A stretch of DNA of 64,000 bases from Gemmatimonadales bacterium (GCA_035692845.1 DASSHL010000151.1:30034-94033), one strand, 5' to 3'; counted from the stretch's first letter, positions 2,778 to 39,253 are shown. Numbers and translations are program-made. Notes: generated by a model from the letters alone, not told the origin.

Positions 2778-3103
2778 AGAAGAGCGGGTGGCGCCGGCAG
2801 GAGGAACGCACAGCTCGACTGTATGGTGGCCGGCGCCAGCCCGGCTCGGGTGCCCACTGGTCGAGGAAGGGCGATGTTGTTACCCCCGAGCTGCTGATCG
2901 AAAACAAATGGCGGGGGAACAACCAGATCACGTTGAAAGGCGTTGACCTGGCGAAGAACTGCGACGAGGCTACGGCAGAAGGCAAGATTCCAGCGTTCGC
3001 AATCGAGCTGGCTGATCGGCGCTACGTCCTGTTTACCGAAGAAGACGTGCTGGAGCATTTCGTTGATCGATTGGGAGCGCCCAGGGTGGCAGGCCAGGAG
3101 TAA
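2774..3103 (+). CDS. PD-(D/E)XK-type nuclease (Holliday-junction-resolvase-like)
   Basis: GSGAHWSRKGDVV...LIENKW pattern (GSG..KGD...E.K) typical of small restriction-fold resolvases; ATGA overlap with recA-like stop. Confidence 0.5.
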   Translation: MKKSGWRRQEERTARLYGGRRQPGSGAHWSRKGDVVTPELLIENKWRGNNQITLKGVDLAKNCDEATAEGKIPAFAIELADRRYVLFTEEDVLEHFVDRLGAPRVAGQE

Positions 3104-4400
3104 GTGCGGAGGGTCACGCCCCGCGCTCTTCTACCCCGAGAAGGGCGAGGGTGAAGACGCCACAGCGGTGGCCCAGGCGGCCAAGTCGGTGTGCAACGGA
3201 TTGGACGGGCAGCCGGCGTGCCCGGTCAAGCAGGAGTGCCTGGAGTTTGCGCTCCAGCACCATGAGAAATTCGGCGTGTGGGGCGGGAGAACTGAGCGGG
3301 AGCGAAATTCGCTCAAGCGGATGCGGAAGAAGGTGAACGGCGTGGGCCGTGTCGTCCGGCAGGTGAAGAAGTCGCCGCTGCGACAGATCCTCGACACCTC
3401 CAAGACCGAGACACGCATCCTCGGCGCCATTCAGCGCCACATCATGATCCGCCCACCTGATGACCGCCGCCAGGACGTGATCCATCCCTCGGAGATGTGC
3501 AAGTCCGACTGGTGCCCGCGCTCGACCTTCTTCCGGCTCGTCGGGGCGCCGGCCATCGAGGACACTGACGCCAACCCCTTCACCCTGGAGAACGTCTGGG
3601 CCGAGGGCCACGATATTCACGACAAATGGCAGACCTGGCTGTGGGAGATGGGCCTGCTCCGCGGTCATTGGCGCTGCAACGCCTGCAAGACCGAGTGGGA
3701 CGCCACGGCGCCGAAGAGCTGCCCACTGTGCAAGGCCGACGTGAGCTGTCTCGAATACCGGGAGGTGCCGCTGACCGGTGAGAAGTACCTCATCGGCGGC
3801 CACGCCGACGGCGACATTGCTGACGACGATGTCGAGGAGCTGTGCCCGCTGATCGAGATCAAAAGCATCGGTATGGGCACGATCCGCTACGACGCTCCGC
3901 ACCTGCTCTCGAAGTACACCCGCAAGGTCAAGAACGACGATGGCTCCGAGCGCTCGGTGTTCGACATGGAGGCGCTCTGGCGTGACCTGAAGCGCCCCTT
4001 CGCCAGTCACGTCAAGCAGGGCATGCTCTACCTCGCCATCTCGGGCCGGCGGGAGATCATCTTCATCTACGAGAACAAATTCAATCAGCAGGTGAAGGAA
4101 TTCCGGGTCCGGTACCAGGAGACGCTGGTGGCCGACCTGCTCGACGCCTGCCTGGACATCAAGTACGCCCTGAAGAGCAACACGCCGCCGCGTCGGCCGC
4201 ACTGGGCCGCCATCGAGAACACCACTTGTGCCAAGTGCGTCTACAGGGAGAACTGCTGGGACGCCGCATTGGAGAATGATGACGAAGAACCTGGCTCTCG
4301 AAATGGCCGAGAAAGCAGCAACGGCCAAGGCCCAGCTCGAACGCGGCGGGTTGTCATTGCCGGCTCGTCCGGCCTTCGAAATACCAAGGCTTCCGCTTAA
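3063..4400 (+). CDS. WhiB-like domain fused to Cas4/RecB-type PD-(D/E)XK exonuclease with Cys cluster
   Basis: N-term C...VCNGLDGQPACPVKQECLEFAL..FGVWGG.TERER is a WhiB signature. C-term HADGD...IEIKS...KQGMLY nuclease motifs plus N-terminal CKSDWC and C-terminal CAKCVYRENC resemble the Cas4 Fe-S Cys set. Start uncertain: TTG 3063 chosen; the ORF stays open back to TTG 2943. Confidence 0.75.
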   Translation: MIDWERPGWQARSKCGGSRPALFYPEKGEGEDATAVAQAAKSVCNGLDGQPACPVKQECLEFALQHHEKFGVWGGRTERERNSLKRMRKKVNGVGRVVRQVKKSPLRQILDTSKTETRILGAIQRHIMIRPPDDRRQDVIHPSEMCKSDWCPRSTFFRLVGAPAIEDTDANPFTLENVWAEGHDIHDKWQTWLWEMGLLRGHWRCNACKTEWDATAPKSCPLCKADVSCLEYREVPLTGEKYLIGGHADGDIADDDVEELCPLIEIKSIGMGTIRYDAPHLLSKYTRKVKNDDGSERSVFDMEALWRDLKRPFASHVKQGMLYLAISGRREIIFIYENKFNQQVKEFRVRYQETLVADLLDACLDIKYALKSNTPPRRPHWAAIENTTCAKCVYRENCWDAALENDDEEPGSRNGRESSNGQGPARTRRVVIAGSSGLRNTKASA

Positions 4401-16552: not shown

Positions 16553-17031
16553 CGGCCGCCTTCTTCGACTTCGAGGAGGTGCTGGCCCGGCAGACGCGTG
16601 AGCCGCTGGCGCTCGGCCTCAAGCTGGTCCGGTTGGTGCGGCCGGCGTTCCGGCTGATCCTTTCCACCGAGGAAACCCAGCCCGAGCTGGTGCAGCATTG
16701 GCTGCTGGAAAATGCGCTGCCGAGGGACACGTTCGCTTACCAGTACCACCTGCTGCCCGACGAACTGGAGCTGAGCGAGGACGAGGTATTCGAGCGGCAT
16801 CTGGATCGTGCTCTCGTCCATATCAACATCGAGATGGTGGTCACGGCCAGTCCCACCAGGGCGGCCATCGCCATGCGGCGCTCGATCACAGCACTGCTCT
16901 TCGCCTCGCCGGCAACGGCGCGCCCTGAATTTCGGCCGGGGCTGCGGCCATGGGATGAAATCTCGGAGGAGGTGAGTCGTCGTCGTATCCTGAGGGCAAA
17001 AGCCACCGTGGGGAATGCCGATGACGACTGA
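16549..17031 (+). CDS. hypothetical protein
   Basis: ATGA coupling; AFFDFEEVL could be a degenerate HAD motif I (weak). Confidence 0.5.
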   Translation: MTAAFFDFEEVLARQTREPLALGLKLVRLVRPAFRLILSTEETQPELVQHWLLENALPRDTFAYQYHLLPDELELSEDEVFERHLDRALVHINIEMVVTASPTRAAIAMRRSITALLFASPATARPEFRPGLRPWDEISEEVSRRRILRAKATVGNADDD

Positions 17032-18418
17032 CACCAAGCCGTTCCAGCTCTATTTCCAGGGCGCCGAGCAGAAGGGCTGGCAGCGTTTGCTGCTGGCCGA
17101 GGGCGTGCGGAACCTGGGCATCAGCTTCACCTACTTCTACCGCAAGGTGAAGCGCTCGAACTGGGAGCTGCCTGATTTCCCTACTGGTACCAGCGTGCTG
17201 CTCGACAGCGGTGCCTTCGGCGCCAACAAGAACCCCGGCCAGATGGACGACAACGGCTGGCGGGAGTACGAGACGGGCTACTGCGAATTCGTGGAGGACA
17301 ACCTCGACGCCATCGACATCGTGGCCGAGTTCGACCTCCAGCAGCTCGGCTACGACCACATCAAGGGCATGCGGGAGACGTTCTGGGACGGCCTTGGCTC
17401 GAAGTTCATGCCGATCTGGCACCCGCACTACGGGATGGACGAGCTGGAGCGCCTGGCCCGACGCTACGACCGCGTCGGCGTACCCGGCAGCGCTCTGGCC
17501 GAGCTGAGCTACCTGGGCGGCCGGATCAACACCCTCAGCCGGCAATGGGACACCCGCTTCCACGGCATCGCCTTGACCCAGCCCGACGTGCTTCGCAACG
17601 TCCACTTCGCCACGGCGGCCAGTACGAGCTGGATCAGCCCGAGCAAATTCGGCGACACCCAGGTCTTCGACGGCCACCGGCTCAAGCGCTACCCCAAGCG
17701 GTACAAGGACCGGGCGCGCCGGCAGCACAAGATGGCCTTCGAGCGGGCCGGCTTCGACGCCGCCAAGATCCTCGCCGATGACCCGGTCGAGGTCACCCGA
17801 TTCACCGTCTGGAGCTGGCGGCGCTTCGAAGAATCGCTCGCGAAGCACAGGGGAGTTACTCCCTCGGTCGACTCGGTGACCGGGGAGATCGCGCCGAGCA
17901 CCACTGGCCCAGTTGGTACCTCCCCCGTTCTGGCGCGCACAGAAGAGGCCGTCCCGCTGCCGGTGCTCAACTTCACGCCGGCCGAGACGTTGACGCTGGC
18001 GCCGGCCGAGACGGTGCGGACGTGCTCGAACTGCTACGTGGCCGCCCAGTGCCCTGCATTTCGCCCTGACGCCTCCTGTGCCTTCAACCTGCCGGTCAGC
18101 CTGCGGACCCGCGAGCAGCTCCTGGGGGCGCTCTACAGCATCGTGGAGATGCAGGTGCAGCGGGTGGCCTTCGGCCGGTACACCGAGGAGCTGGAGGGCG
18201 GCTACAGCGACCCGAACCTCTCCAACGAGGTTGACCGGCTCATGCGCCTGGTCAAGGAGCTGAAGGACATCGAGGACACCCGCGACACCGTCCGGCAGAT
18301 CACCGAGATCAAGGCCGGCGCCGGGGTGCTCTCCCGCATCTTCGGAGAGCGACCCCAGCCCGAGCTGCCGGCCACCAACGGCCACGTCATCGAGGGCGAG
18401 GTCGTGGAGGGGGATTAA
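17015..18418 (+). CDS. TIM-barrel-like protein with DSGAF motif (possible TGT/DpdA-family transglycosylase) plus Cys-cluster/helical C-terminal half
   Basis: VLLDSGAFGA recalls the DSGGFQ catalytic motif of tRNA-guanine transglycosylases and DpdA; alternating strand-like segments (NLGISFTYF, IVAEFD, RVGVPG, RFHGIAL, ATAASTSWISP); C-term CSNCYVAAQCPAFRPDASC. The CDS is secure; the function is tentative. Confidence 0.4.
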   Translation: MPMTTDTKPFQLYFQGAEQKGWQRLLLAEGVRNLGISFTYFYRKVKRSNWELPDFPTGTSVLLDSGAFGANKNPGQMDDNGWREYETGYCEFVEDNLDAIDIVAEFDLQQLGYDHIKGMRETFWDGLGSKFMPIWHPHYGMDELERLARRYDRVGVPGSALAELSYLGGRINTLSRQWDTRFHGIALTQPDVLRNVHFATAASTSWISPSKFGDTQVFDGHRLKRYPKRYKDRARRQHKMAFERAGFDAAKILADDPVEVTRFTVWSWRRFEESLAKHRGVTPSVDSVTGEIAPSTTGPVGTSPVLARTEEAVPLPVLNFTPAETLTLAPAETVRTCSNCYVAAQCPAFRPDASCAFNLPVSLRTREQLLGALYSIVEMQVQRVAFGRYTEELEGGYSDPNLSNEVDRLMRLVKELKDIEDTRDTVRQITEIKAGAGVLSRIFGERPQPELPATNGHVIEGEVVEGD

Positions 18419-35849: not shown

Positions 35850-36052
35850 TGCCCCGCAAGGTGACACTCTCCGGTGGCCGGGTCCGCAGCCAGATCGTGA
35901 CCGAGGCCCACCACCGGGCCGGCTACATGCGGATCGGGCCACGCTCGAAGGTCTGGTGCTCCTGCGGCTGGAAAGACGAGCTGCAAGGGACCTATACCGA
36001 GATGCAGGCGGCCTTCGAAACCCATAGGAAAGGCGAGCTGGTAAACTCTTGA
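35849..36052 (+). CDS. hypothetical protein
   Basis: TGATG coupling at 35849. Confidence 0.45.
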   Translation: MPRKVTLSGGRVRSQIVTEAHHRAGYMRIGPRSKVWCSCGWKDELQGTYTEMQAAFETHRKGELVNS

Positions 36053-36089
36053 CAATCCGCCTGGTGGCGGGCTATCGGAGGATCCAGTC

Positions 36090-36581
36090 GTGGCAACCAT
36101 TCGGGAACAGGTCATCGCCAACCTCGGCCGGCGAAAGAACCGGGAAATCCGCGAGGCCGAGGGCTTCGTCACCTCGAAGCTCGCCCACCAGCTCAAGATC
36201 GAGCCGGGCACGCTGGCCTCGACGCTCAGGCGTATGGAGGAGCGGGGCGAGATCCAACGCGAGGTGCAAGGCAAGCGCAGCTACGCCATCCGTCTGTGCG
36301 AGGTCGAGACAGAGGCCCCTGCAGCGGCTCCTGCAGCCCCGGTAACCAACGGACGGTCAACGCTCACCCAAGAGCGCCTGGACGCCGTAGCGGCCGTTCT
36401 GGAGGAGTATCCGGCCCTGGAGGAAGAGAACCGGCAGCTTCACCGGGAGCTGGGCAAGGCCGAGGAGAAGATCGAGGCGTTGGAGCTGCAGATCGCTGCG
36501 CTCAAGCGCCAGGTCGACGCGACCAAGGACACGGCCAAGCTCATCGCCGAAATCCAGGAGCGCCTGCAGAAAATCGGTTGA
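36090..36581 (+). CDS. winged-helix DNA-binding protein with C-terminal coiled coil
   Basis: GTG start; FVTSKLAHQLKIEPGTLASTLRRMEERGEIQRE is a MarR/wHTH-like pattern, then a heptad-rich tail. Confidence 0.55.
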   Translation: MATIREQVIANLGRRKNREIREAEGFVTSKLAHQLKIEPGTLASTLRRMEERGEIQREVQGKRSYAIRLCEVETEAPAAAPAAPVTNGRSTLTQERLDAVAAVLEEYPALEEENRQLHRELGKAEEKIEALELQIAALKRQVDATKDTAKLIAEIQERLQKIG

Positions 36582-36734
36582 CGCTTCTCGGCGGGCGCTG
36601 CAATATCTCCGAGGGCGGAACGAGGAATCGAAGGCGATATGCCTCGCGGCCGGCTCAAAACCGGCAGGGCGCAAGCCCAAAGAGCTGCCCTGCGCCGCAA
36701 GCAGCAGCCGTCCCTGCACCTTGACAATTTTTCA

Positions 36735-36878
36735 TCGGTCCCGAAGCGAAGGAGCGGGTTACTTCTCCTTACAAGAGGGGGACGCGGGTTCGAATCCCGC
36801 CGGCCGCCCGAGAGGGCGCCGTAGCCTAGTGGCCTAAGGCACCAACGTCTCCTGTTCCGACCTTGTTCTCGGGACCGA
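36735..36878 (+). ncRNA. Y-RNA-like module 1 with circularly permuted tRNA-like domain
   Basis: Closing helix tcggtcccg/cgggaccga; box aagcgaa; inner helix ggagcggg/cc(aa)cg(t)ctcc; hairpin cttctc-CTTACAA-gagggg; T-arm 36784-36800 (ttcgaat loop); GAGA-capped helix 36801-36821; D-arm 36824-36840; box ccttgttct. Confidence 0.7.
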
Positions 36879-36885
36879 CAATTCC

Positions 36886-37003
36886 TGACCCTGAAGCGAA
36901 GCATTTGGCTTACTTCTGACTGCTAATCAGACGATGCAGGTTCGACTCCTGCTGCAAAGGCCGGCGCCTAGTCGTACGCCGAGGCGACTGGTTCTCAGGG
37001 TCA
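36886..37003 (+). ncRNA. Y-RNA-like module 2 with anticodon-arm-like and T-arm hairpins
   Basis: Closing helix tgaccctg/cagggtca; box aagcgaag; ggcttacttc; tctga-CTGCTAA-tcaga 36915-36931; T-arm gcagg-ttcgact-cctgc 36936-36952; box ctggttc. Confidence 0.6.
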
Positions 37004-37008
37004 ACTCT

Positions 37009-37073
37009 CCGGGGGTAGTGACTGCGGTAGCTGGAAGTGGCCTGTACTGGTGGCGCAGAGGCCCTACCCCCGG
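37009..37073 (+). ncRNA. long hairpin between modules 2 and 3
   Basis: 10-bp perfect stem ccgggggtag/ctacccccgg enclosing a ctgcg...cgcag sub-helix; lacks the conserved boxes; function unknown. Confidence 0.4.
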
Positions 37074-37082
37074 ATTTTGTAA

Positions 37083-37156
37083 CTGCCAGATGCGAAGGCA
37101 ATGCGGTACTTCTTTCGGTGAAGACAACCCGCGAGGCCATCCCTGTTCTCTGGCAG
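37083..37156 (+). ncRNA. Y-RNA-like module 3 (minimal, single distal hairpin)
   Basis: Closing helix ctgccaga/tctggcag; box tgcgaag; inner helix tgcgg/ccgcg; ta-cttc-tttcggt-gaag hairpin; box cctgttc; followed by ccttttc. Confidence 0.6.
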
Positions 37157-37164
37157 CCTTTTCG

Positions 37165-37284
37165 CCGGCTCGGTGCGAAGGGCGTCGGTTACTTCTTGGT
37201 TCGAATCCAAGGTGATGGGGACGAGAGTCGCCGCACCTGCCCAATTGGCTTGGGCTACCCGACCCCGAACGGTTCCCGAGCCGG
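37165..37284 (+). ncRNA. Y-RNA-like module 4 with circularly permuted tRNA-like domain
   Basis: Closing helix ccggctcgg/ccgagccgg; box tgcgaa; inner helix ggg(C)gtcgg/ccgacccc with a bulged C; T-arm 37195-37211 (ttcgaat); GAGA-capped hairpin 37218-37232; D-arm gccca-attggct-tgggc 37239-37255; followed by tcttttt. Confidence 0.7.
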
Positions 37285-37291
37285 TCTTTTT
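37285..37291 (+). terminator. U-tract following module 4 helix (possible transcript 3' end)
   Basis: tcttttt immediately after the 9-bp closing helix; a 9-bp inverted repeat ttgacggcg/cgccgtcaa (37290-37298 / 37346-37354) follows. Confidence 0.35.
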
Positions 37292-37355
37292 GACGGCGTC
37301 AGGTGAAGAGGTGCGTGCCATAGAACTCGCTCCTTGAAAATTCGGCGCCGTCAAA

Positions 37356-37465
37356 TGGGCCAGAAGCGATGGGGTGCGGTACTTCGGTTAGAGGAGCCGG
37401 GGTTCGAAGCCCCGCTCTGCCGGTTCAAGCCCGGCTACCCGCTCTCCGACCTGTTCTCTGGCCCA
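37356..37465 (+). ncRNA. Y-RNA-like module 5 with non-permuted tRNA cloverleaf mimic
   Basis: Closing helix tgggccaga/tctggccca; box agcgat; inner helix ggggtgcgg/ccgctctcc (one U-U mismatch); TA; D-arm 37382-37396; anticodon-like arm cgggg-TTCGAAG-ccccg 37398-37414; T-arm gccgg-ttcaagc-ccggc 37419-37435; box gacctgttc. Confidence 0.7.
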
Positions 37466-37471
37466 GCTTCA

Positions 37472-37587
37472 CCCGCTCGATGCGACGGACCACGGTTACT
37501 TCGTGCCAGCCCTTCGGGGCACCGCCGGCCGACGAACCGGCAAACCGGGAAACCGGTCCTACCGTGTCCAAGCTGTTCTCGGGCGGG
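37472..37587 (+). ncRNA. Y-RNA-like module 6 (three non-tRNA hairpins)
   Basis: Closing helix cccgctcga/tcgggcggg (one G-U pair); box tgcgac; inner helix ggac(C)acgg/ccgtgtcc with a bulged C; ggttacttc; hairpins gtgcc..ggcac, gccgg..ccggc, ccgg-gaaa-ccgg; box aagctgttc; ends 22 nt before the Ro ATG. Confidence 0.6.
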
Positions 37588-37609
37588 AATTCGTACCCAG
37601 GGAGGAGCC

Positions 37610-39253
37610 ATGACCAAGTTCACCAATCGTCCCACCGCCCGGCCGACCGGCCCGGTTCGGAGCACTGGCATCACCCGGACCCACGAAGGCGCCGTCGGCT
37701 ACAGCCGAGACGCCGAGTCGGAGCTGTTCCTCCTGGCGGCCACCAACATGGTGTCGGAAGGCACCTTCTATGAGAGCGCCACCGCTCGCGACGAGCGCTT
37801 CCAGCGCCTCGTCCATCAGGTGGCGAAGACCAACCCCGAGTGGCTGCTCGGCGCCGAAGACCTGGAGCAGCGCACCGCCGGCAAGGTCGGCTTCATCGAG
37901 TACCTGCGGAACACCCTGCAGATGCGCTCGGCCAGCCTGGTCATGGCCGCCGAGTTCGTGCGCTCGGGCGCCCCCGGCGGCCGGCGTGCCGTCCGGCAGG
38001 CGATCTCCCGCGCCGACGAGCCGGCCGAGATCCTCGGCTACTGGATGAGCCAGTACGGCCGCAAGCTGCCGGCCGCCCTCAAGCGGGGTGTGGCCGACGC
38101 CGTGGTCCGGCTCTACACCGAGCGCAACGCCCTGAAGTGGGACGGCCAGAGCAAGGACATCCGCTTCGCCGACGTGATCGAGTTGGTTCACCCGCGGCCG
38201 CGCATGGTCTGGGGTGGCAAGGGGGCGCCGCCGGCCGGACGCCAGAGCGACCTGTTCAAGTACCTGCTCGACCGCCGGCACCACCCGGACAACGCCGAGA
38301 TCCCTGACAGCCTGGAGCTGATCCACCTGGACCGCCGGCTGCTCGCCATGCCCACCGAGGGCCGGCGCGTGGCGCTCAAGGAGGGCCTGGTGGCCGAGGC
38401 AGGCTGGAGCTGGGAGCGGCTCGCCGGCTGGCTGCCGGGCGGCATGGACTCCGAGGCGTGGATGTCGGTCATCCCGCAGATGGGCTACATGGCCCTGATC
38501 CGCAACCTGCGGAATTTCGATGACGCCGGCATTTACGCCAAGGTCAAGTCCGAGGTCTGCCGTCGGATCGAGGACCCCGAGGAGGTCGCCAAGAGTCGGC
38601 AGTTCCCGTACCGGTTCTGGAGCGCCTACAAGAACGCTCCGAGTCTGGAGTGGGGCGCCTCCCTGGAGCGTGCGCTCGACTACTCCTGCCGGAACATCCC
38701 CGAGCTGAGCGGCCGATCGCTGATCCTGATCGACACCTCGGCGTCGATGAACGACACCGTCTCCGACCGCAGCAAGGCGCGGCGGTTCGAGGTCGGCGCT
38801 CTGTTTGCCGGCGCTCTGGCGAAGCGGGCGGCCAACCCGACCGTGGTCATCTTCGGTGACCAGTCGAAGGAGTTCCCGATCGGCAAGTCGGAGTCGGTCC
38901 TGCGCTACGTAGACCGGGTGGGGGCAAGCATCGGCTCCGTCGGACACGGCACGATGATCTGGCGCTCGGTGCAGGAGCACTTCGCCAACCACGACCGGGT
39001 GGTGATTTTCACCGACGAGCAGAGCATGGACGACGCCGGCCAGCCGATGCGGACCTACTACGGCCGCAGCGACGGGATCGACAGCTCCACGTACAAGGCC
39101 ATCCCGGCCGTCCACGCCTTCAACCTGGCGGGGTACCGGGCCGGCACGGTGCCGCCCGGCAGTGGTCGGTACACCTACGGCGGGTTCACCGACGCCACGT
39201 TCGTGCTCATGGCGGCCCTGGAGGCCGGCAGCGAGGCAGGCTGGCCGTTCTAA
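37610..39253 (+). CDS. rsr: Ro60-like protein (TROVE domain plus C-terminal vWA/MIDAS)
   Basis: ATG 37610 after GGGAGGAG. N-term THEGAVGYSRDAESELFLLAATNMVSEGTFYES is TROVE-like. C-term LILIDTSASMND is a DxSxS MIDAS motif. The extra 92 N-terminal codons in the track ORF overlie the RNA modules. Confidence 0.8.
   Translation: MTKFTNRPTARPTGPVRSTGITRTHEGAVGYSRDAESELFLLAATNMVSEGTFYESATARDERFQRLVHQVAKTNPEWLLGAEDLEQRTAGKVGFIEYLRNTLQMRSASLVMAAEFVRSGAPGGRRAVRQAISRADEPAEILGYWMSQYGRKLPAALKRGVADAVVRLYTERNALKWDGQSKDIRFADVIELVHPRPRMVWGGKGAPPAGRQSDLFKYLLDRRHHPDNAEIPDSLELIHLDRRLLAMPTEGRRVALKEGLVAEAGWSWERLAGWLPGGMDSEAWMSVIPQMGYMALIRNLRNFDDAGIYAKVKSEVCRRIEDPEEVAKSRQFPYRFWSAYKNAPSLEWGASLERALDYSCRNIPELSGRSLILIDTSASMNDTVSDRSKARRFEVGALFAGALAKRAANPTVVIFGDQSKEFPIGKSESVLRYVDRVGASIGSVGHGTMIWRSVQEHFANHDRVVIFTDEQSMDDAGQPMRTYYGRSDGIDSSTYKAIPAVHAFNLAGYRAGTVPPGSGRYTYGGFTDATFVLMAALEAGSEAGWPF

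What the first reader, a model, noticed from the sequence alone, without database searches (positions are those of the whole stretch)
36582..39253. Six tandem Y-RNA-like structured RNA modules directly upstream of a phage Ro60 (TROVE-vWA) gene
The 1.03 kb between the wHTH gene (stop 36581) and the Ro60-like gene (ATG 37610) has no credible ORF.

It holds six consecutive units: 36735-36878, 36886-37003, 37083-37156, 37165-37284, 37356-37465 and 37472-37587. All are built on one plan:
- (i) An 8-9 bp closing helix whose sequence differs in every unit but stays complementary: tcggtcccg/cgggaccga; tgaccctg/cagggtca; ctgccaga/tctggcag; ccggctcgg/ccgagccgg; tgggccaga/tctggccca; cccgctcga/tcgggcggg.
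- (ii) A conserved asymmetric internal loop, with 5' side RGCGAWG and 3' side CYTGTTC.
- (iii) A second covarying helix that carries a mid-helix bulge or mismatch, clearest in units 4-6: ggg(C)gtcgg/ccgacccc, ggac(C)acgg/ccgtgtcc, gggg(T)gcgg/ccgc(T)ctcc.
- (iv) A near-invariant GG(T)TACTTC junction (unit 2 has GGCTTACTTC).
- (v) A unit-specific distal domain.

A terminal Ro-binding stem with a bulged helix plus a variable effector domain is the defining Y RNA architecture. Bacterial Rsr genes are known to sit next to Y RNA genes with tRNA-like domains (YrlA).

The unusual points:
- six back-to-back modules with heterogeneous distal domains;
- location on a phage genome;
- the last module ending 22 nt before the Ro start;
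- U-tracts after modules 3 and 4, which suggest several transcripts or processing from a polycistronic precursor.

The six-fold internal covariation is direct evidence for RNA structure without needing homologues.
Basis: partly seen in the sequence, partly recalled or inferred. Interest (0 to 1): 0.8.

Follow-up and report, generated by a model that had tools for sequence, protein, structure and literature searches.

The report
Six Y RNA genes before phage Ro60
The gap upstream of a phage Ro60 gene holds six real, structured Y-RNA-like genes; this is a large example of a known arrangement (Ro60 with neighbouring Y RNAs, some mimicking tRNA), not a new kind of system.

Summary
Window 36735-37587 (+) holds six back-to-back modules built on one plan: an 8-10 bp closing helix, a 5' loop NGCGAWG, a second helix that usually has a bulge, GG(U)UACUUC, a variable distal domain, and a 3' loop ending in GUUC.

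A covariance model built only from 48 modules of other loci finds exactly these six units in the 64 kb (E 8e-19 to 1e-6) and nothing else below E 0.05. Both helices covary.

The downstream gene is a Ro60 protein (TROVE + vWA). The contig is a tailed phage, probably of an actinobacterium.

The same module lies on the Ro60 strand upstream of Ro60 in most of about 250 related loci (443 hits against 7 on the opposite strand). These include GenBank actinophages and actinobacterial chromosomes. Arrays of 2-4 are usual, and 6-8 occur in several other viral contigs.

Unit 1 has the YrlA layout (variable arm, T arm, acceptor-like stem, D arm). The other units are YrlB-like or partial tRNA mimics.

Y RNAs next to Ro60 in phages were described in 2014, and a phage Ro60 was shown to bind two upstream Y-like RNAs in 2025. 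This is therefore a new member of a known kind, of moderate interest. Rfam's YrlA model misses the whole clade.

The parts
36090..36581 (+). Upstream winged-helix (MarR-like) gene with a coiled-coil tail. Context only; a same-sized gene sits at this position in relative L008.
   Evidence: Pfam MarR 7.5e-05, below the curated cut-off. The L008 gene table shows a 160-aa gene before the array.
36720..36728 (+). CTTGACAAT motif 7 nt before unit 1. A related CTTGAAAAT lies at 37333 before unit 5, and CTTGACAAT at 36048 before the winged-helix gene. It may be a promoter or a processing signal; the role is unresolved.
   Evidence: Three matches in the window, all on the + strand, against 0.48 expected. 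The same motif precedes the unit-1 orthologues in L007 and L008 and the last module in L005.
36735..36878 (+). Unit 1, YrlA-type Y RNA. Closing helix, AGCGAAG loop, second helix GGAGCGGG/CCUGUUCC, GGUUACUUC, variable arm, T arm (36784-36800), acceptor-like stem-loop, D arm.
   Evidence: Independent model R1: 91.6 bits, E 8e-19. Rfam YrlA partial match at 36777-36843, 24.4 bits. With orthologues in L007 and L008, 10 of 47 pairs change on both sides.
36886..37003 (+). Unit 2, a partial tRNA mimic. It has a 5-bp stem with the 7-nt loop CUGCUAA (36915-36931), a T arm and a D-like hairpin, but no acceptor-like stem-loop.
   Evidence: R1: 53.2 bits, E 4e-10. Rfam tRNA 26.7 bits, below the cut-off of 29. 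In the L008 orthologue the arm and its loop are identical, while the T stem and second helix carry compensatory changes.
37008..37074 (+). Long hairpin followed by ATTTTG, between units 2 and 3. It may terminate transcription of the first pair of units. It is absent from relatives L007 and L008.
   Evidence: Fold -35 kcal/mol, z -2.0. Inverted repeat I1. Comparison with relatives.
37083..37156 (+). Unit 3, a short YrlB-like Y RNA. The distal part is a small hairpin with a pyrimidine-rich loop.
   Evidence: R1: 39.3 bits, E 6e-07. Orthologues of 77-78 nt in L006, L007 and L008 have covarying arms.
37164..37285 (+). Unit 4. A T-arm-like hairpin (UUGGUUCGAAUCCAAG) directly follows UACUUC, then two more hairpins. 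The closing helix is followed by UCUUUUU.
   Evidence: R1: 45.9 bits, E 2e-08. The orthologue L007 348-473 has changed arms. The same subtype occurs in Streptosporangiales chromosomes.
37289..37355 (+). Conserved hairpin between units 4 and 5, containing CCTTGAAAATTC. Function unknown. Relatives carry a tRNA gene in the array just before the module(s) nearest Ro60: L006, L007 and L008 have it in place of this hairpin, and L005 has it immediately upstream of its own copy of the hairpin.
   Evidence: Fold z -4.3. The core is nearly identical in L005, whose outer stem is completely different yet still complementary. No other copy was found.
37356..37465 (+). Unit 5, with two T-arm-like hairpins. 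ARAGORN reads its orthologue in L008 as a tRNA.
   Evidence: R1: 50.9 bits, E 1.5e-09. With L006, L007 and L008, 6 of 29 pairs change on both sides. ARAGORN calls tRNA-Arg(tcg) inside L008 3675-3784.
37472..37587 (+). Unit 6, with three distal hairpins and no T loop. It ends 22 nt before the Ro60 start codon.
   Evidence: R1: 37.9 bits, E 1.3e-06. A similar last module, L005 257-380, has covarying arms.
37610..39253 (+). Ro60 (TROVE + vWA) gene, 547 aa, preceded by GGGAGGAG at 37600-37607.
   Evidence: Pfam hits. Homologues cover the full length. Related to the solved phage phiLo Ro60, 9KOP/9L5Y, E 4e-31.

Best explanation
The 1 kb upstream of the phage Ro60 gene encodes six small non-coding Y RNAs of the bacterial YrlA/YrlB type.

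**Architecture (shown here).**
- In each RNA the 5' and 3' ends pair to form the closing helix.
- An internal loop carrying NGCGAAG on the 5' strand and GUUC on the 3' strand, together with a second, usually bulged, helix, forms a module shared by all six.
- This module is conserved across Ro60 loci of Actinobacteria and their phages.
- The distal domains differ. Unit 1 is a circularly permuted tRNA mimic (variable arm, T arm, acceptor-like stem, D arm). Units 2, 4 and 5 are partial tRNA mimics. Units 3 and 6 are plain hairpin sets.

**Function (inferred from published work on other Ro60/Y RNA pairs).**
- The shared module is the docking site for the outer surface of the phage Ro60 ring.
- The distal domain of each RNA recruits or blocks a different partner. 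One candidate partner is host polynucleotide phosphorylase, forming a Ro60/Y RNA/PNPase machine that degrades structured RNA. tRNA-handling enzymes are another.

**Expression (inferred).** The array is read in the Ro60 direction as one or a few precursors and cut into 74-144 nt RNAs. Units lie in three tight pairs, with spacers of 6-7 nt. The pairs are separated by hairpins or U-tracts, so three transcription or processing units are plausible, the last continuing into the Ro60 mRNA.
For: **Structure.**
- A covariance model built from 48 modules of other loci, excluding the window and its four close relatives, hits all six units full length at E 8e-19 to 1.3e-06. The next hit is E 0.05, on the other strand.
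- Closing helix: 48/48 cells paired, 6 of 8 pairs changed on both sides, 0/500 shuffles reach the score.
- Second helix: in 140 modules, cognate strands pair at a mean of -12.5 kcal/mol against -7.5 for non-cognate strands, p 1e-53. This helix was not used to select the modules.
- Orthologous units in relatives keep their pairs through double changes.

**Link to Ro60.**
- 443 modules lie on the Ro60 strand and 7 on the opposite strand in 248 loci. The last module ends a median of 53 nt before the Ro60 start.
- All 72 model hits in 16 loci are on the Ro60 strand.
- Of 42 full modules found in viral contigs by a sequence pattern alone, at least 30 have Ro60 in the fetched stretch.

**Y RNA identity.**
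- Unit 1 aligns to Rfam YrlA positions 24-84, covering the T arm, acceptor-like stem and D arm.
- Chromosomal loci of Streptosporangium, Planotetraspora and Actinomadura carry the same module with T, acceptor-like and D arms just upstream of Ro60. Chen et al. 2014 described YrlA in such organisms. They also reported the CGAA motif, YUAY, several Y RNAs per locus cut from one precursor, and 22 phages with such RNAs (PMC4201824).
- The Ro60 of Thermus phage phiLo binds two upstream CGAA-bearing Y-like RNAs and host PNPase (PMC12135203). The window's Ro60 is related to that protein.
Against: - There is no expression, processing or binding data for this phage. Everything about function is by analogy.
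- No unit reaches the Rfam YrlA gathering score (24.4 against 69 bits), and no Rfam family passes threshold anywhere in the window.
- The published motif GNCGAAN0-1G is matched only from its third position. The first G is A or U here, and units 5 and 6 have CGAU and CGAC.
- No sigma-70-like promoter was found, so transcript boundaries are unknown.
- Units 3 and 6 have no tRNA-like feature.
Confidence: 0.85

Rival explanations
1. The array is not cut into six separate RNAs. It acts as one long structured leader or scaffold of the Ro60 transcript. It would carry six Ro60 docking sites that load several Ro60 rings, or would let Ro60 repress its own translation through the module that ends 22 nt before the start codon.
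For: - The last module ends close to the Ro60 start in most loci: median 53 nt, and 23-24 nt in the close relatives whose upstream region is held.
- Spacers between paired units are only 6-7 nt.
- No promoter-like site lies between the units.
- Phage phiLo Ro60 forms higher-order complexes with its Y-like RNAs (PMC12135203).
Against: - In M. smegmatis and D. radiodurans, Y RNAs made from a common precursor are processed to separate small RNAs (PMC4201824).
- U-tracts and a terminator-like hairpin interrupt the array.
- In some loci the modules lie 1-2 kb from Ro60, or downstream of it, as in phage Atuin. That does not fit a leader.
Confidence: 0.12
2. The units are decayed or unusual tRNA genes, or tRNA decoys, that work independently of Ro60. 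They would be left over from the tRNA arrays that surround Ro60 in related phages.
For: - Ro60 sits inside tRNA arrays in phages BRock, GiJojo and Atuin and in L009.
- Relatives L005-L008 have a true tRNA inside the array.
- Unit 2 scores 26.7 bits with the Rfam tRNA model.
- ARAGORN calls tRNAs inside modules of VanLee, GiJojo and L008.
Against: - ARAGORN finds no tRNA in the window, and no unit reaches the tRNA threshold.
- The conserved, covarying closing helix, CGAA loop, second helix and UACUUC are not tRNA features, yet they are the parts shared by all units and by 400+ modules.
- Units 3 and 6 have no tRNA-like arm.
- The modules follow Ro60, not tRNA arrays: L045, L066 and L141 have 6-7 modules and no tRNA.
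Confidence: 0.03
3. The pattern is not a functional RNA. It would be chance hairpins in G+C-rich DNA, a set of terminators or repeat elements, or a missed protein-coding stretch.
For: Mechanical ORFs of 54-105 aa overlap the region, and the Ro60 frame is open from 37334. G+C-rich sequence folds readily.
Against: - Shuffles give 0.2 modules per 64 kb against 6 observed.
- The independent model gives E down to 8e-19.
- Both helices covary.
- Only short motifs are repeated, so these are not repeat elements.
- No ORF in 36582-37333 passes the third-position G+C filter (at least 0.7) that the window's other selected ORFs meet.
Confidence: 0.01

Closest known systems
Bacterial YrlA / YrlB Y RNAs (Chen et al. 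2014, RNA 20:1715, PMC4201824; Rfam RF02553)
   Same: - Encoded next to Ro60 on the same strand.
- Terminal stem formed by the 5' and 3' ends.
- CGAA-containing motif on the 5' strand, with YUAY after the stem.
- One RNA per locus has T arm, acceptor-like stem-loop and D arm in permuted order (unit 1).
- A companion short hairpin RNA with a pyrimidine-rich loop (unit 3).
- In M. smegmatis, several RNAs upstream of rsr are processed from one precursor.
- Also reported in 22 phages.
   Different: - Six modules here, against the two characterised per species.
- Both strands of the docking module are conserved in this clade: the 3' loop is G(A/U)UC and the second helix covaries. The paper states that only the 5' strand is recognisable in the Salmonella and M. 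smegmatis RNAs.
- The first G of GNCGAA is not kept.
- The Rfam model scores only 24 bits.
Yrl1 and Yrl2 of Thermus phage phiLo (NAR 2025, PMC12135203; PDB 9KOP, 9L5Y)
   Same: - A phage-encoded Ro60 with Y-like RNAs directly upstream.
- The RNAs were recognised by CGAA motifs in a stem-bulge-stem fold.
- Binding to the phage Ro60 and to host PNPase was shown in vitro.
- The window's Ro60 is a sequence relative (E 4e-31).
   Different: - Two RNAs there, six here.
- Only about 27% protein identity in the tblastn match.
- The passages I read of that paper do not describe tRNA-like domains.
Deinococcus radiodurans Yrn1/Yrn2 and neighbouring small RNAs
   Same: - Several small RNAs lie upstream of rsr.
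- Yrn2, tRNA-Asp and Yrn1 are made as one precursor. This parallels the true tRNA embedded in the arrays of relatives L005-L008.
- The T arm is followed by an anticodon-like arm in non-permuted order, as in some units here.
   Different: The Deinococcus docking helix resembles the animal one (GGUCCGA type). The modules here carry the YrlA-type CGAA loop.
Animal Y RNAs (Rfam Y_RNA)
   Same: Modular plan: a terminal Ro60-binding stem with a bulged helix plus a variable effector loop, and two to four paralogues per species.
   Different: No sequence or model match was found: no Y_RNA hit even at E 10. Animal Y RNAs have no tRNA-like domain and are made by RNA polymerase III.

Membership tests
YrlA-type bacterial Y RNA (Chen et al. 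2014) | Encoded within about 4 kb of a Ro60 (TROVE) gene, on the same strand | tested here: met
   All six units lie 23-875 nt upstream of the TROVE gene on the + strand.
YrlA-type bacterial Y RNA (Chen et al. 2014) | Long stem formed by pairing of the 5' and 3' ends | tested here: met
   8-10 bp perfect helices in all six units. 48/48 cells pair and 6 of 8 pairs covary.
YrlA-type bacterial Y RNA (Chen et al. 2014) | GNCGAAN0-1G motif near the 5' end | tested here: inconclusive
   Units 1-4 have (A/U)GCGAAG, so CGAA(N0)G is kept but the first G is A or U. Units 5 and 6 have CGAUG and CGACG. Family-wide consensus is UGCGNAG.
YrlA-type bacterial Y RNA (Chen et al. 2014) | Conserved YUAY following the stem, at the start of the variable arm | tested here: met
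   UUAC in units 1, 2, 4 and 6; GUAC in units 3 and 5. UACUUC is invariant.
YrlA-type bacterial Y RNA (Chen et al. 2014) | tRNA-like domain: T arm, acceptor-like stem-loop, D arm, in that order | tested here: met
   Met for unit 1 only, which aligns to Rfam YrlA positions 24-84; the arms are kept in L007 and L008. Units 2, 4 and 5 have a T arm only. Units 3 and 6 have none, so they are YrlB-like at best.
YrlA-type bacterial Y RNA (Chen et al. 2014) | Score at or above the Rfam RF02553 gathering threshold (69 bits) | tested here: not met
   Best score is 24.4 bits, for unit 1. None of 30 related loci reaches it either, including Streptosporangium chromosomes. The model appears too narrow for this clade.
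YrlA-type bacterial Y RNA (Chen et al. 2014) | Stable small RNA bound by the Ro60 protein in vivo | not testable with these tools
   Needs RNA-seq or Northern blots and co-immunoprecipitation or gel-shift assays.
Actinobacterial/phage Ro60-linked module defined here (model R1) | Full-length match to a covariance model built from modules of other Ro60 loci | tested here: met
   All six units match model positions 1-127 at 37.9-91.6 bits, E 1.3e-06 to 8e-19. No other hit in the window is below E 0.05.
tRNA | Cloverleaf recognised by ARAGORN, or by the Rfam tRNA model at 29 bits or more | tested here: not met
   ARAGORN finds 0 genes in the window. The best Rfam tRNA score is 26.7 bits, for unit 2, which lacks a D arm.
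Animal/Deinococcus-type Y RNA | Conserved bulged helix with GGUCCGA on the 5' strand; match to the Rfam Y_RNA model | tested here: not met
   No Y_RNA hit even at E 10 in 36500-37700. The 5' strand carries GCGAAG instead.

The most novel reading that the evidence does not exclude
The phage carries a deliberately diversified set of six adaptors for one Ro60 ring. This would be the high end of an unrecognised expansion: arrays of 5-8 were seen only in viral or metagenomic contigs, and of at most 4 in the chromosomes sampled.

Each tRNA-like or hairpin distal domain would tether Ro60 to a different host factor, or would act as a decoy for host enzymes or defence nucleases that recognise tRNA. One unit keeps an anticodon-loop-like CUGCUAA arm unchanged between phages.

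If so, Ro60/Y RNA would be a multiplexed host-takeover or counter-defence device rather than a single RNA-decay cofactor.
Probability: 0.15. Interest if true: 0.7.

Novelty: new member of a known kind. Interest (0 to 1): 0.4.

Why it matters
Y RNAs are still poorly understood, and bacterial and phage examples are the most tractable ones.

- **A clean test case.** This locus offers six paralogous Y RNAs with one shared docking module and six different distal domains, next to their Ro60. That is a natural experiment for asking what the distal domain does.
- **A gap in the reference model.** The survey shows a well-defined two-stranded docking module (UGCGNAG ... GGNUACUUC ... G(A/U)UC) in hundreds of Ro60 loci of Actinobacteria and their phages. 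Rfam's YrlA model does not detect it.
- **Annotation errors.** Some of these RNAs are annotated as tRNA genes in GenBank phage records.

None of this changes the known picture of Ro60 with adjacent Y RNAs. It extends it.

Tried and rejected
- **Rfam.** At gathering thresholds on the whole window there were no hits. At E up to 10 on the region there were only sub-threshold YrlA and tRNA matches; weak hits to the lysine riboswitch, mascRNA, tmRNA and plastid motifs were judged chance. Rfam on 30 related loci gave no YrlA hit, so it cannot decide membership.
- **Known phages.** A nucleotide search of 25 kb against GenBank phages found no match. The only DNA-level hit to the region was the Ro60 gene of Gordonia phage VanLee.
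- **First scanner too strict.** It required UUC before the 3' arm and missed the many modules with GAUC or GACC. I relaxed it after seeing this.
- **Alignment of trimmed cores.** RNAalifold recovered only the closing helix, because bulges shift the second helix. I replaced it with a cognate against non-cognate duplex test.
- **Promoters.** The sigma-70 scan found none. I tried reading YTTGAMAAT as a -35 or a -10 element. Neither gives a start site compatible with the closing helix in all relatives, so it is left unexplained.
- **Conserved hairpin 37289-37355.** Exact-core searches found it only in L005's contig.
- **Literature.** The 2020 Annual Review on bacterial Ro60 is not held, and no supplements of Chen et al. 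2014 are held. I could not compare directly with their alignments.
- **Rejected readings.** Repeat elements, coding sequence and tRNA genes.

Full report
**What is in the sequence.** Window 36582-37609 lies between a small winged-helix gene (stop at 36581) and a 547-aa gene starting at ATG 37610. It holds six consecutive units on the + strand: 36735-36878, 36886-37003, 37083-37156, 37164-37285, 37356-37465 and 37472-37587.

Each unit has, in order:
- an 8-10 bp perfect closing helix;
- a 5' loop (A/U)GCGA(A/U/C)G;
- a second helix of 8-9 bp, with a bulge or mismatch in five of the six units;
- GG(U)UACUUC;
- a distal domain of its own;
- the return strand of the second helix;
- a 3' loop ending in GUUC;
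- the return strand of the closing helix.

Only these short core motifs and a T-loop motif are repeated. The distal domains are otherwise unique. The units sit in three tight pairs with spacers of 7, 7 and 6 nt. The pairs are separated by a 79-nt stretch holding a long hairpin plus AUUUUG, and by a 70-nt stretch that starts with a U-tract and holds a very stable hairpin.

**Is it more than chance?** Yes, by four tests.
1. The motif pair GCGAWG-N5-14-GGTTACTTC is expected 0.00 times in shuffles of the window.
2. A scanner for the whole plan finds the six units on the + strand and one weak hit on the - strand in 64 kb. Dinucleotide shuffles give 0.2.
3. I built a covariance model (R1) from 48 modules taken only from other loci, leaving out the window and its four close relatives. 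It matches all six units over the full model at 37.9-91.6 bits (E 1.3e-06 to 8e-19). The next hit is E 0.05, on the other strand.
4. On the model-based alignment of the six units, all 48 cells of the closing helix pair. Six of 8 pairs change on both sides. No shuffle of 500 and no slid register comes near.

**Surroundings.**
- The downstream protein is Ro60: Pfam TROVE 4.6e-14 plus a sub-threshold match to the Ro60 vWA domain. It is related to the solved Ro60 of Thermus phage phiLo (E 4e-31) and to Xenopus Ro60.
- The ATG at 37610 is the real start. It follows GGGAGGAG, and homologues of 510-548 aa cover the whole protein. The open frame running back to 37334 is therefore not coding.
- My GC3-filtered ORF selection (third-position G+C of at least 0.7) picked no ORF in the gap.
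- The window is a tailed phage: large terminase, portal, UvsX-like recombinase, helicase, and a WhiB-like domain that points to an actinobacterial host.
- The identical Ro60 protein is deposited from a 109.7 kb contig binned as Gemmatimonadales, which is probably a binning label rather than the host.
- The window has no tRNA gene.

**Relatives.** I collected about 250 loci encoding Ro60 relatives. They comprise GenBank phages, the closest metagenomic relatives, and metagenome, IMG/VR and GTDB genome contigs.

The same module is upstream of Ro60 in most of them:
- 443 scanner hits lie on the Ro60 strand and 7 on the opposite strand.
- All 72 hits of model R1 in 16 loci are on the Ro60 strand.
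- Among 186 distinct loci with at least 1.5 kb of upstream sequence, the strict scanner counts 0, 1, 2, 3, 4, 5, 6 and 8 modules in 40, 48, 49, 22, 19, 2, 5 and 1 loci respectively.
- The last module ends a median of 53 nt before the start codon.
- With R1, L147 has 8 modules, L045 has 7, and L066, L125, L133, L141 and L009 have 6.
- By the strict scanner, chromosomal loci in the GTDB set had at most 4, and counts of 5 or more were seen only in viral or metagenomic contigs. This is a lower-bound count from a strict scanner, so it is a lead, not a result.
- Going the other way, a sequence-only pattern scan of viral contigs gave 42 full modules. At least 30 have Ro60 in the fetched stretch, and several of the rest are truncated stretches of contigs known to carry Ro60.

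**Structure support from relatives.** The second helix was not used to pick modules. In 140 diverse modules, the 5' strand pairs with its own 3' strand at a mean of -12.5 kcal/mol, against -7.5 for strands from other modules (p 1e-53).

The closest relatives, with Ro60 60-73% identical, carry recognisable orthologues of units 1-6 with compensatory changes:
- unit 1: 10 of 47 pairs changed on both sides;
- unit 5: 6 of 29;
- unit 2: 3 of 30, while its 5-bp arm with loop CUGCUAA is unchanged.

**What the units are.**
- Unit 1 has the YrlA layout. After UACUUC come a variable arm, a T arm (GCGGGUUCGAAUCCCGC), an 8-bp acceptor-like stem-loop and a D arm (GUAGCCUAGUGGCCUAAGGCAC). It aligns to positions 24-84 of Rfam YrlA (24.4 bits, E 0.014).
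- Chromosomal loci of Streptosporangium, Planotetraspora and Actinomadura show the same module with the same arms, ending about 49 nt before Ro60 and preceded by 2-3 further modules.
- Unit 3 is a short hairpin with a pyrimidine-rich loop, as described for YrlB-type RNAs.
- Unit 4 belongs to a recurrent subtype in which a T arm directly follows UACUUC.
- Units 2 and 5 are partial tRNA mimics. Unit 2 scores 26.7 bits with the tRNA model. ARAGORN reads the L008 orthologue of unit 5 as a tRNA.
- Unit 6 has three plain hairpins.
- Family-wide, of 366 distinct modules, 92 have T plus D motifs, 137 have T only and 134 have neither.

**Comparison with what is known.**
- Chen et al. 2014 (PMC4201824) reported YrlA-like RNAs next to Ro60 in 254 bacterial species and 22 phages. 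They described a GNCGAAN0-1G motif near the 5' end, YUAY at the start of the variable arm, and T, acceptor-like and D stem-loops.
- They also found at least two Y RNAs in each species studied. In M. smegmatis, YrlA and YrlB lie upstream of rsr and are cut from one precursor. In D. radiodurans, a precursor joins Yrn2, a tRNA and Yrn1.
- A 2025 paper (PMC12135203) showed that the Ro60 of Thermus phage phiLo binds two CGAA-bearing Y-like RNAs encoded just upstream. It also showed that these form a complex with host PNPase.
- The present locus fits this picture on every point that can be tested in sequence, with two exceptions. Rfam's threshold is missed by this whole clade. The first G of the published motif is not kept.
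- Two things go beyond the published description, as far as I could read it. Both strands of the docking module are conserved and covary in this clade. Arrays reach 6-8 modules.

**How it most likely works.**
- Shown: six structured, covarying RNA modules with a shared core and different distal domains, tied in position and strand to Ro60.
- Inferred from the cited work: the shared core docks on the outer face of the Ro60 ring, mainly through the 5' strand with CGAA. The distal domains engage other factors, such as PNPase or tRNA-handling enzymes, or gate access to the Ro60 cavity. The RNAs are cut from one to three precursors, the last continuing into the Ro60 message.
- What the phage gains is unknown. 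Candidates are redirection of host RNA decay or interference with host defence.

**Rivals.**
- A single unprocessed leader or scaffold, possibly with Ro60 autoregulation through unit 6, is not excluded and could coexist with the main model (about 0.12).
- Decayed tRNA genes or Ro60-independent decoys are unlikely (about 0.03). The shared conserved parts are not tRNA features, and the modules follow Ro60 even where no tRNA is present.
- Chance, repeats or coding sequence are excluded by the tests above.

**Verdict.** This is a new and unusually large member of a known kind. Interest is moderate (0.4). It is a good experimental system and shows a gap in Rfam, but it is not a new principle.

Noticed in passing
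window 37289-37355; L005 195-255: A stable hairpin (z -4.3) lies between units 4 and 5. Its core, GGTGAAGAGGTGCGTGCCATAGAACTCG(nn)CCTTGAAAATTC, is almost identical in a phage whose Ro60 is only 60% identical. The 7-bp outer stem there is entirely different yet still complementary. No other copy was found in 248 loci or in IMG/VR by exact-core search. L006, L007 and L008 have a tRNA gene in its place; L005 has a tRNA immediately upstream of its copy. Function unknown.
   Followed up: partly
window 36048-36056, 36720-36728, 37333-37341 (+): YTTGAMAAT occurs three times in the window against 0.48 expected, all on the + strand. The sites are before the winged-helix gene, 7 nt before unit 1 and 15 nt before unit 5. 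The same motif precedes the unit-1 orthologues in L007 and L008 and the last module in L005. Reading it as a -35 or a -10 element does not give a consistent start site.
   Followed up: partly
L004 2641-2712 (Gordonia phage VanLee); L002 2769-2843 (Streptomyces phage GiJojo); L008 3694-3765: tRNA genes annotated in GenBank or called by ARAGORN (tRNA-Arg tct, cct, tcg) lie inside Y-RNA-like modules. The variable arm, with its 7-nt YU-NNN-AA loop, is read as an anticodon arm. These are probably mis-annotated YrlA-type RNAs.
   Followed up: partly
L001-L003, L009, L169: In several actinophages (BRock, GiJojo, Atuin), in L009 and in a locus from an Acidimicrobiia MAG chromosome (L169), Ro60 and its modules sit inside large tRNA arrays, with up to about 30 tRNAs upstream in L009. 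Close relatives of the window carry one true tRNA inside the array: tRNA-Glu(ctc) in L006-L008 and tRNA-Thr(tgt) in L005. The window has no tRNA at all.
   Followed up: partly
L066 3680-3856: A match to the Rfam manA RNA motif just above its gathering score (57.4 against 55.2 bits) lies inside a six-module Y-RNA-like array upstream of Ro60.
   Followed up: no
many loci, e.g. L046, L047, L050, L074, L100, L101, L206, L208, L215, L217: One module subtype has a T arm directly after UACUUC. It keeps almost the same closing helix across distant loci: CCUCCCGG/UCGGGAGG. That is an anti-Shine-Dalgarno-like 5' arm paired to a Shine-Dalgarno-like 3' arm. The window's unit 4 belongs to this subtype but has different arms.
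   Followed up: no
window 2943-4400 and 17015-18418: The phage encodes a fusion of a WhiB-like domain with an exonuclease domain. It also encodes a queuine tRNA-ribosyltransferase-like protein, of the kind used by some phages for 7-deazaguanine DNA modification. The WhiB-like domain suggests an actinobacterial host, although the deposited contig is binned as Gemmatimonadales.
   Followed up: no
L003 4748-5330 (Arthrobacter phage Atuin): In Atuin, four modules lie downstream of Ro60 as well as two upstream. The upstream position is therefore usual but not obligatory.
   Followed up: no
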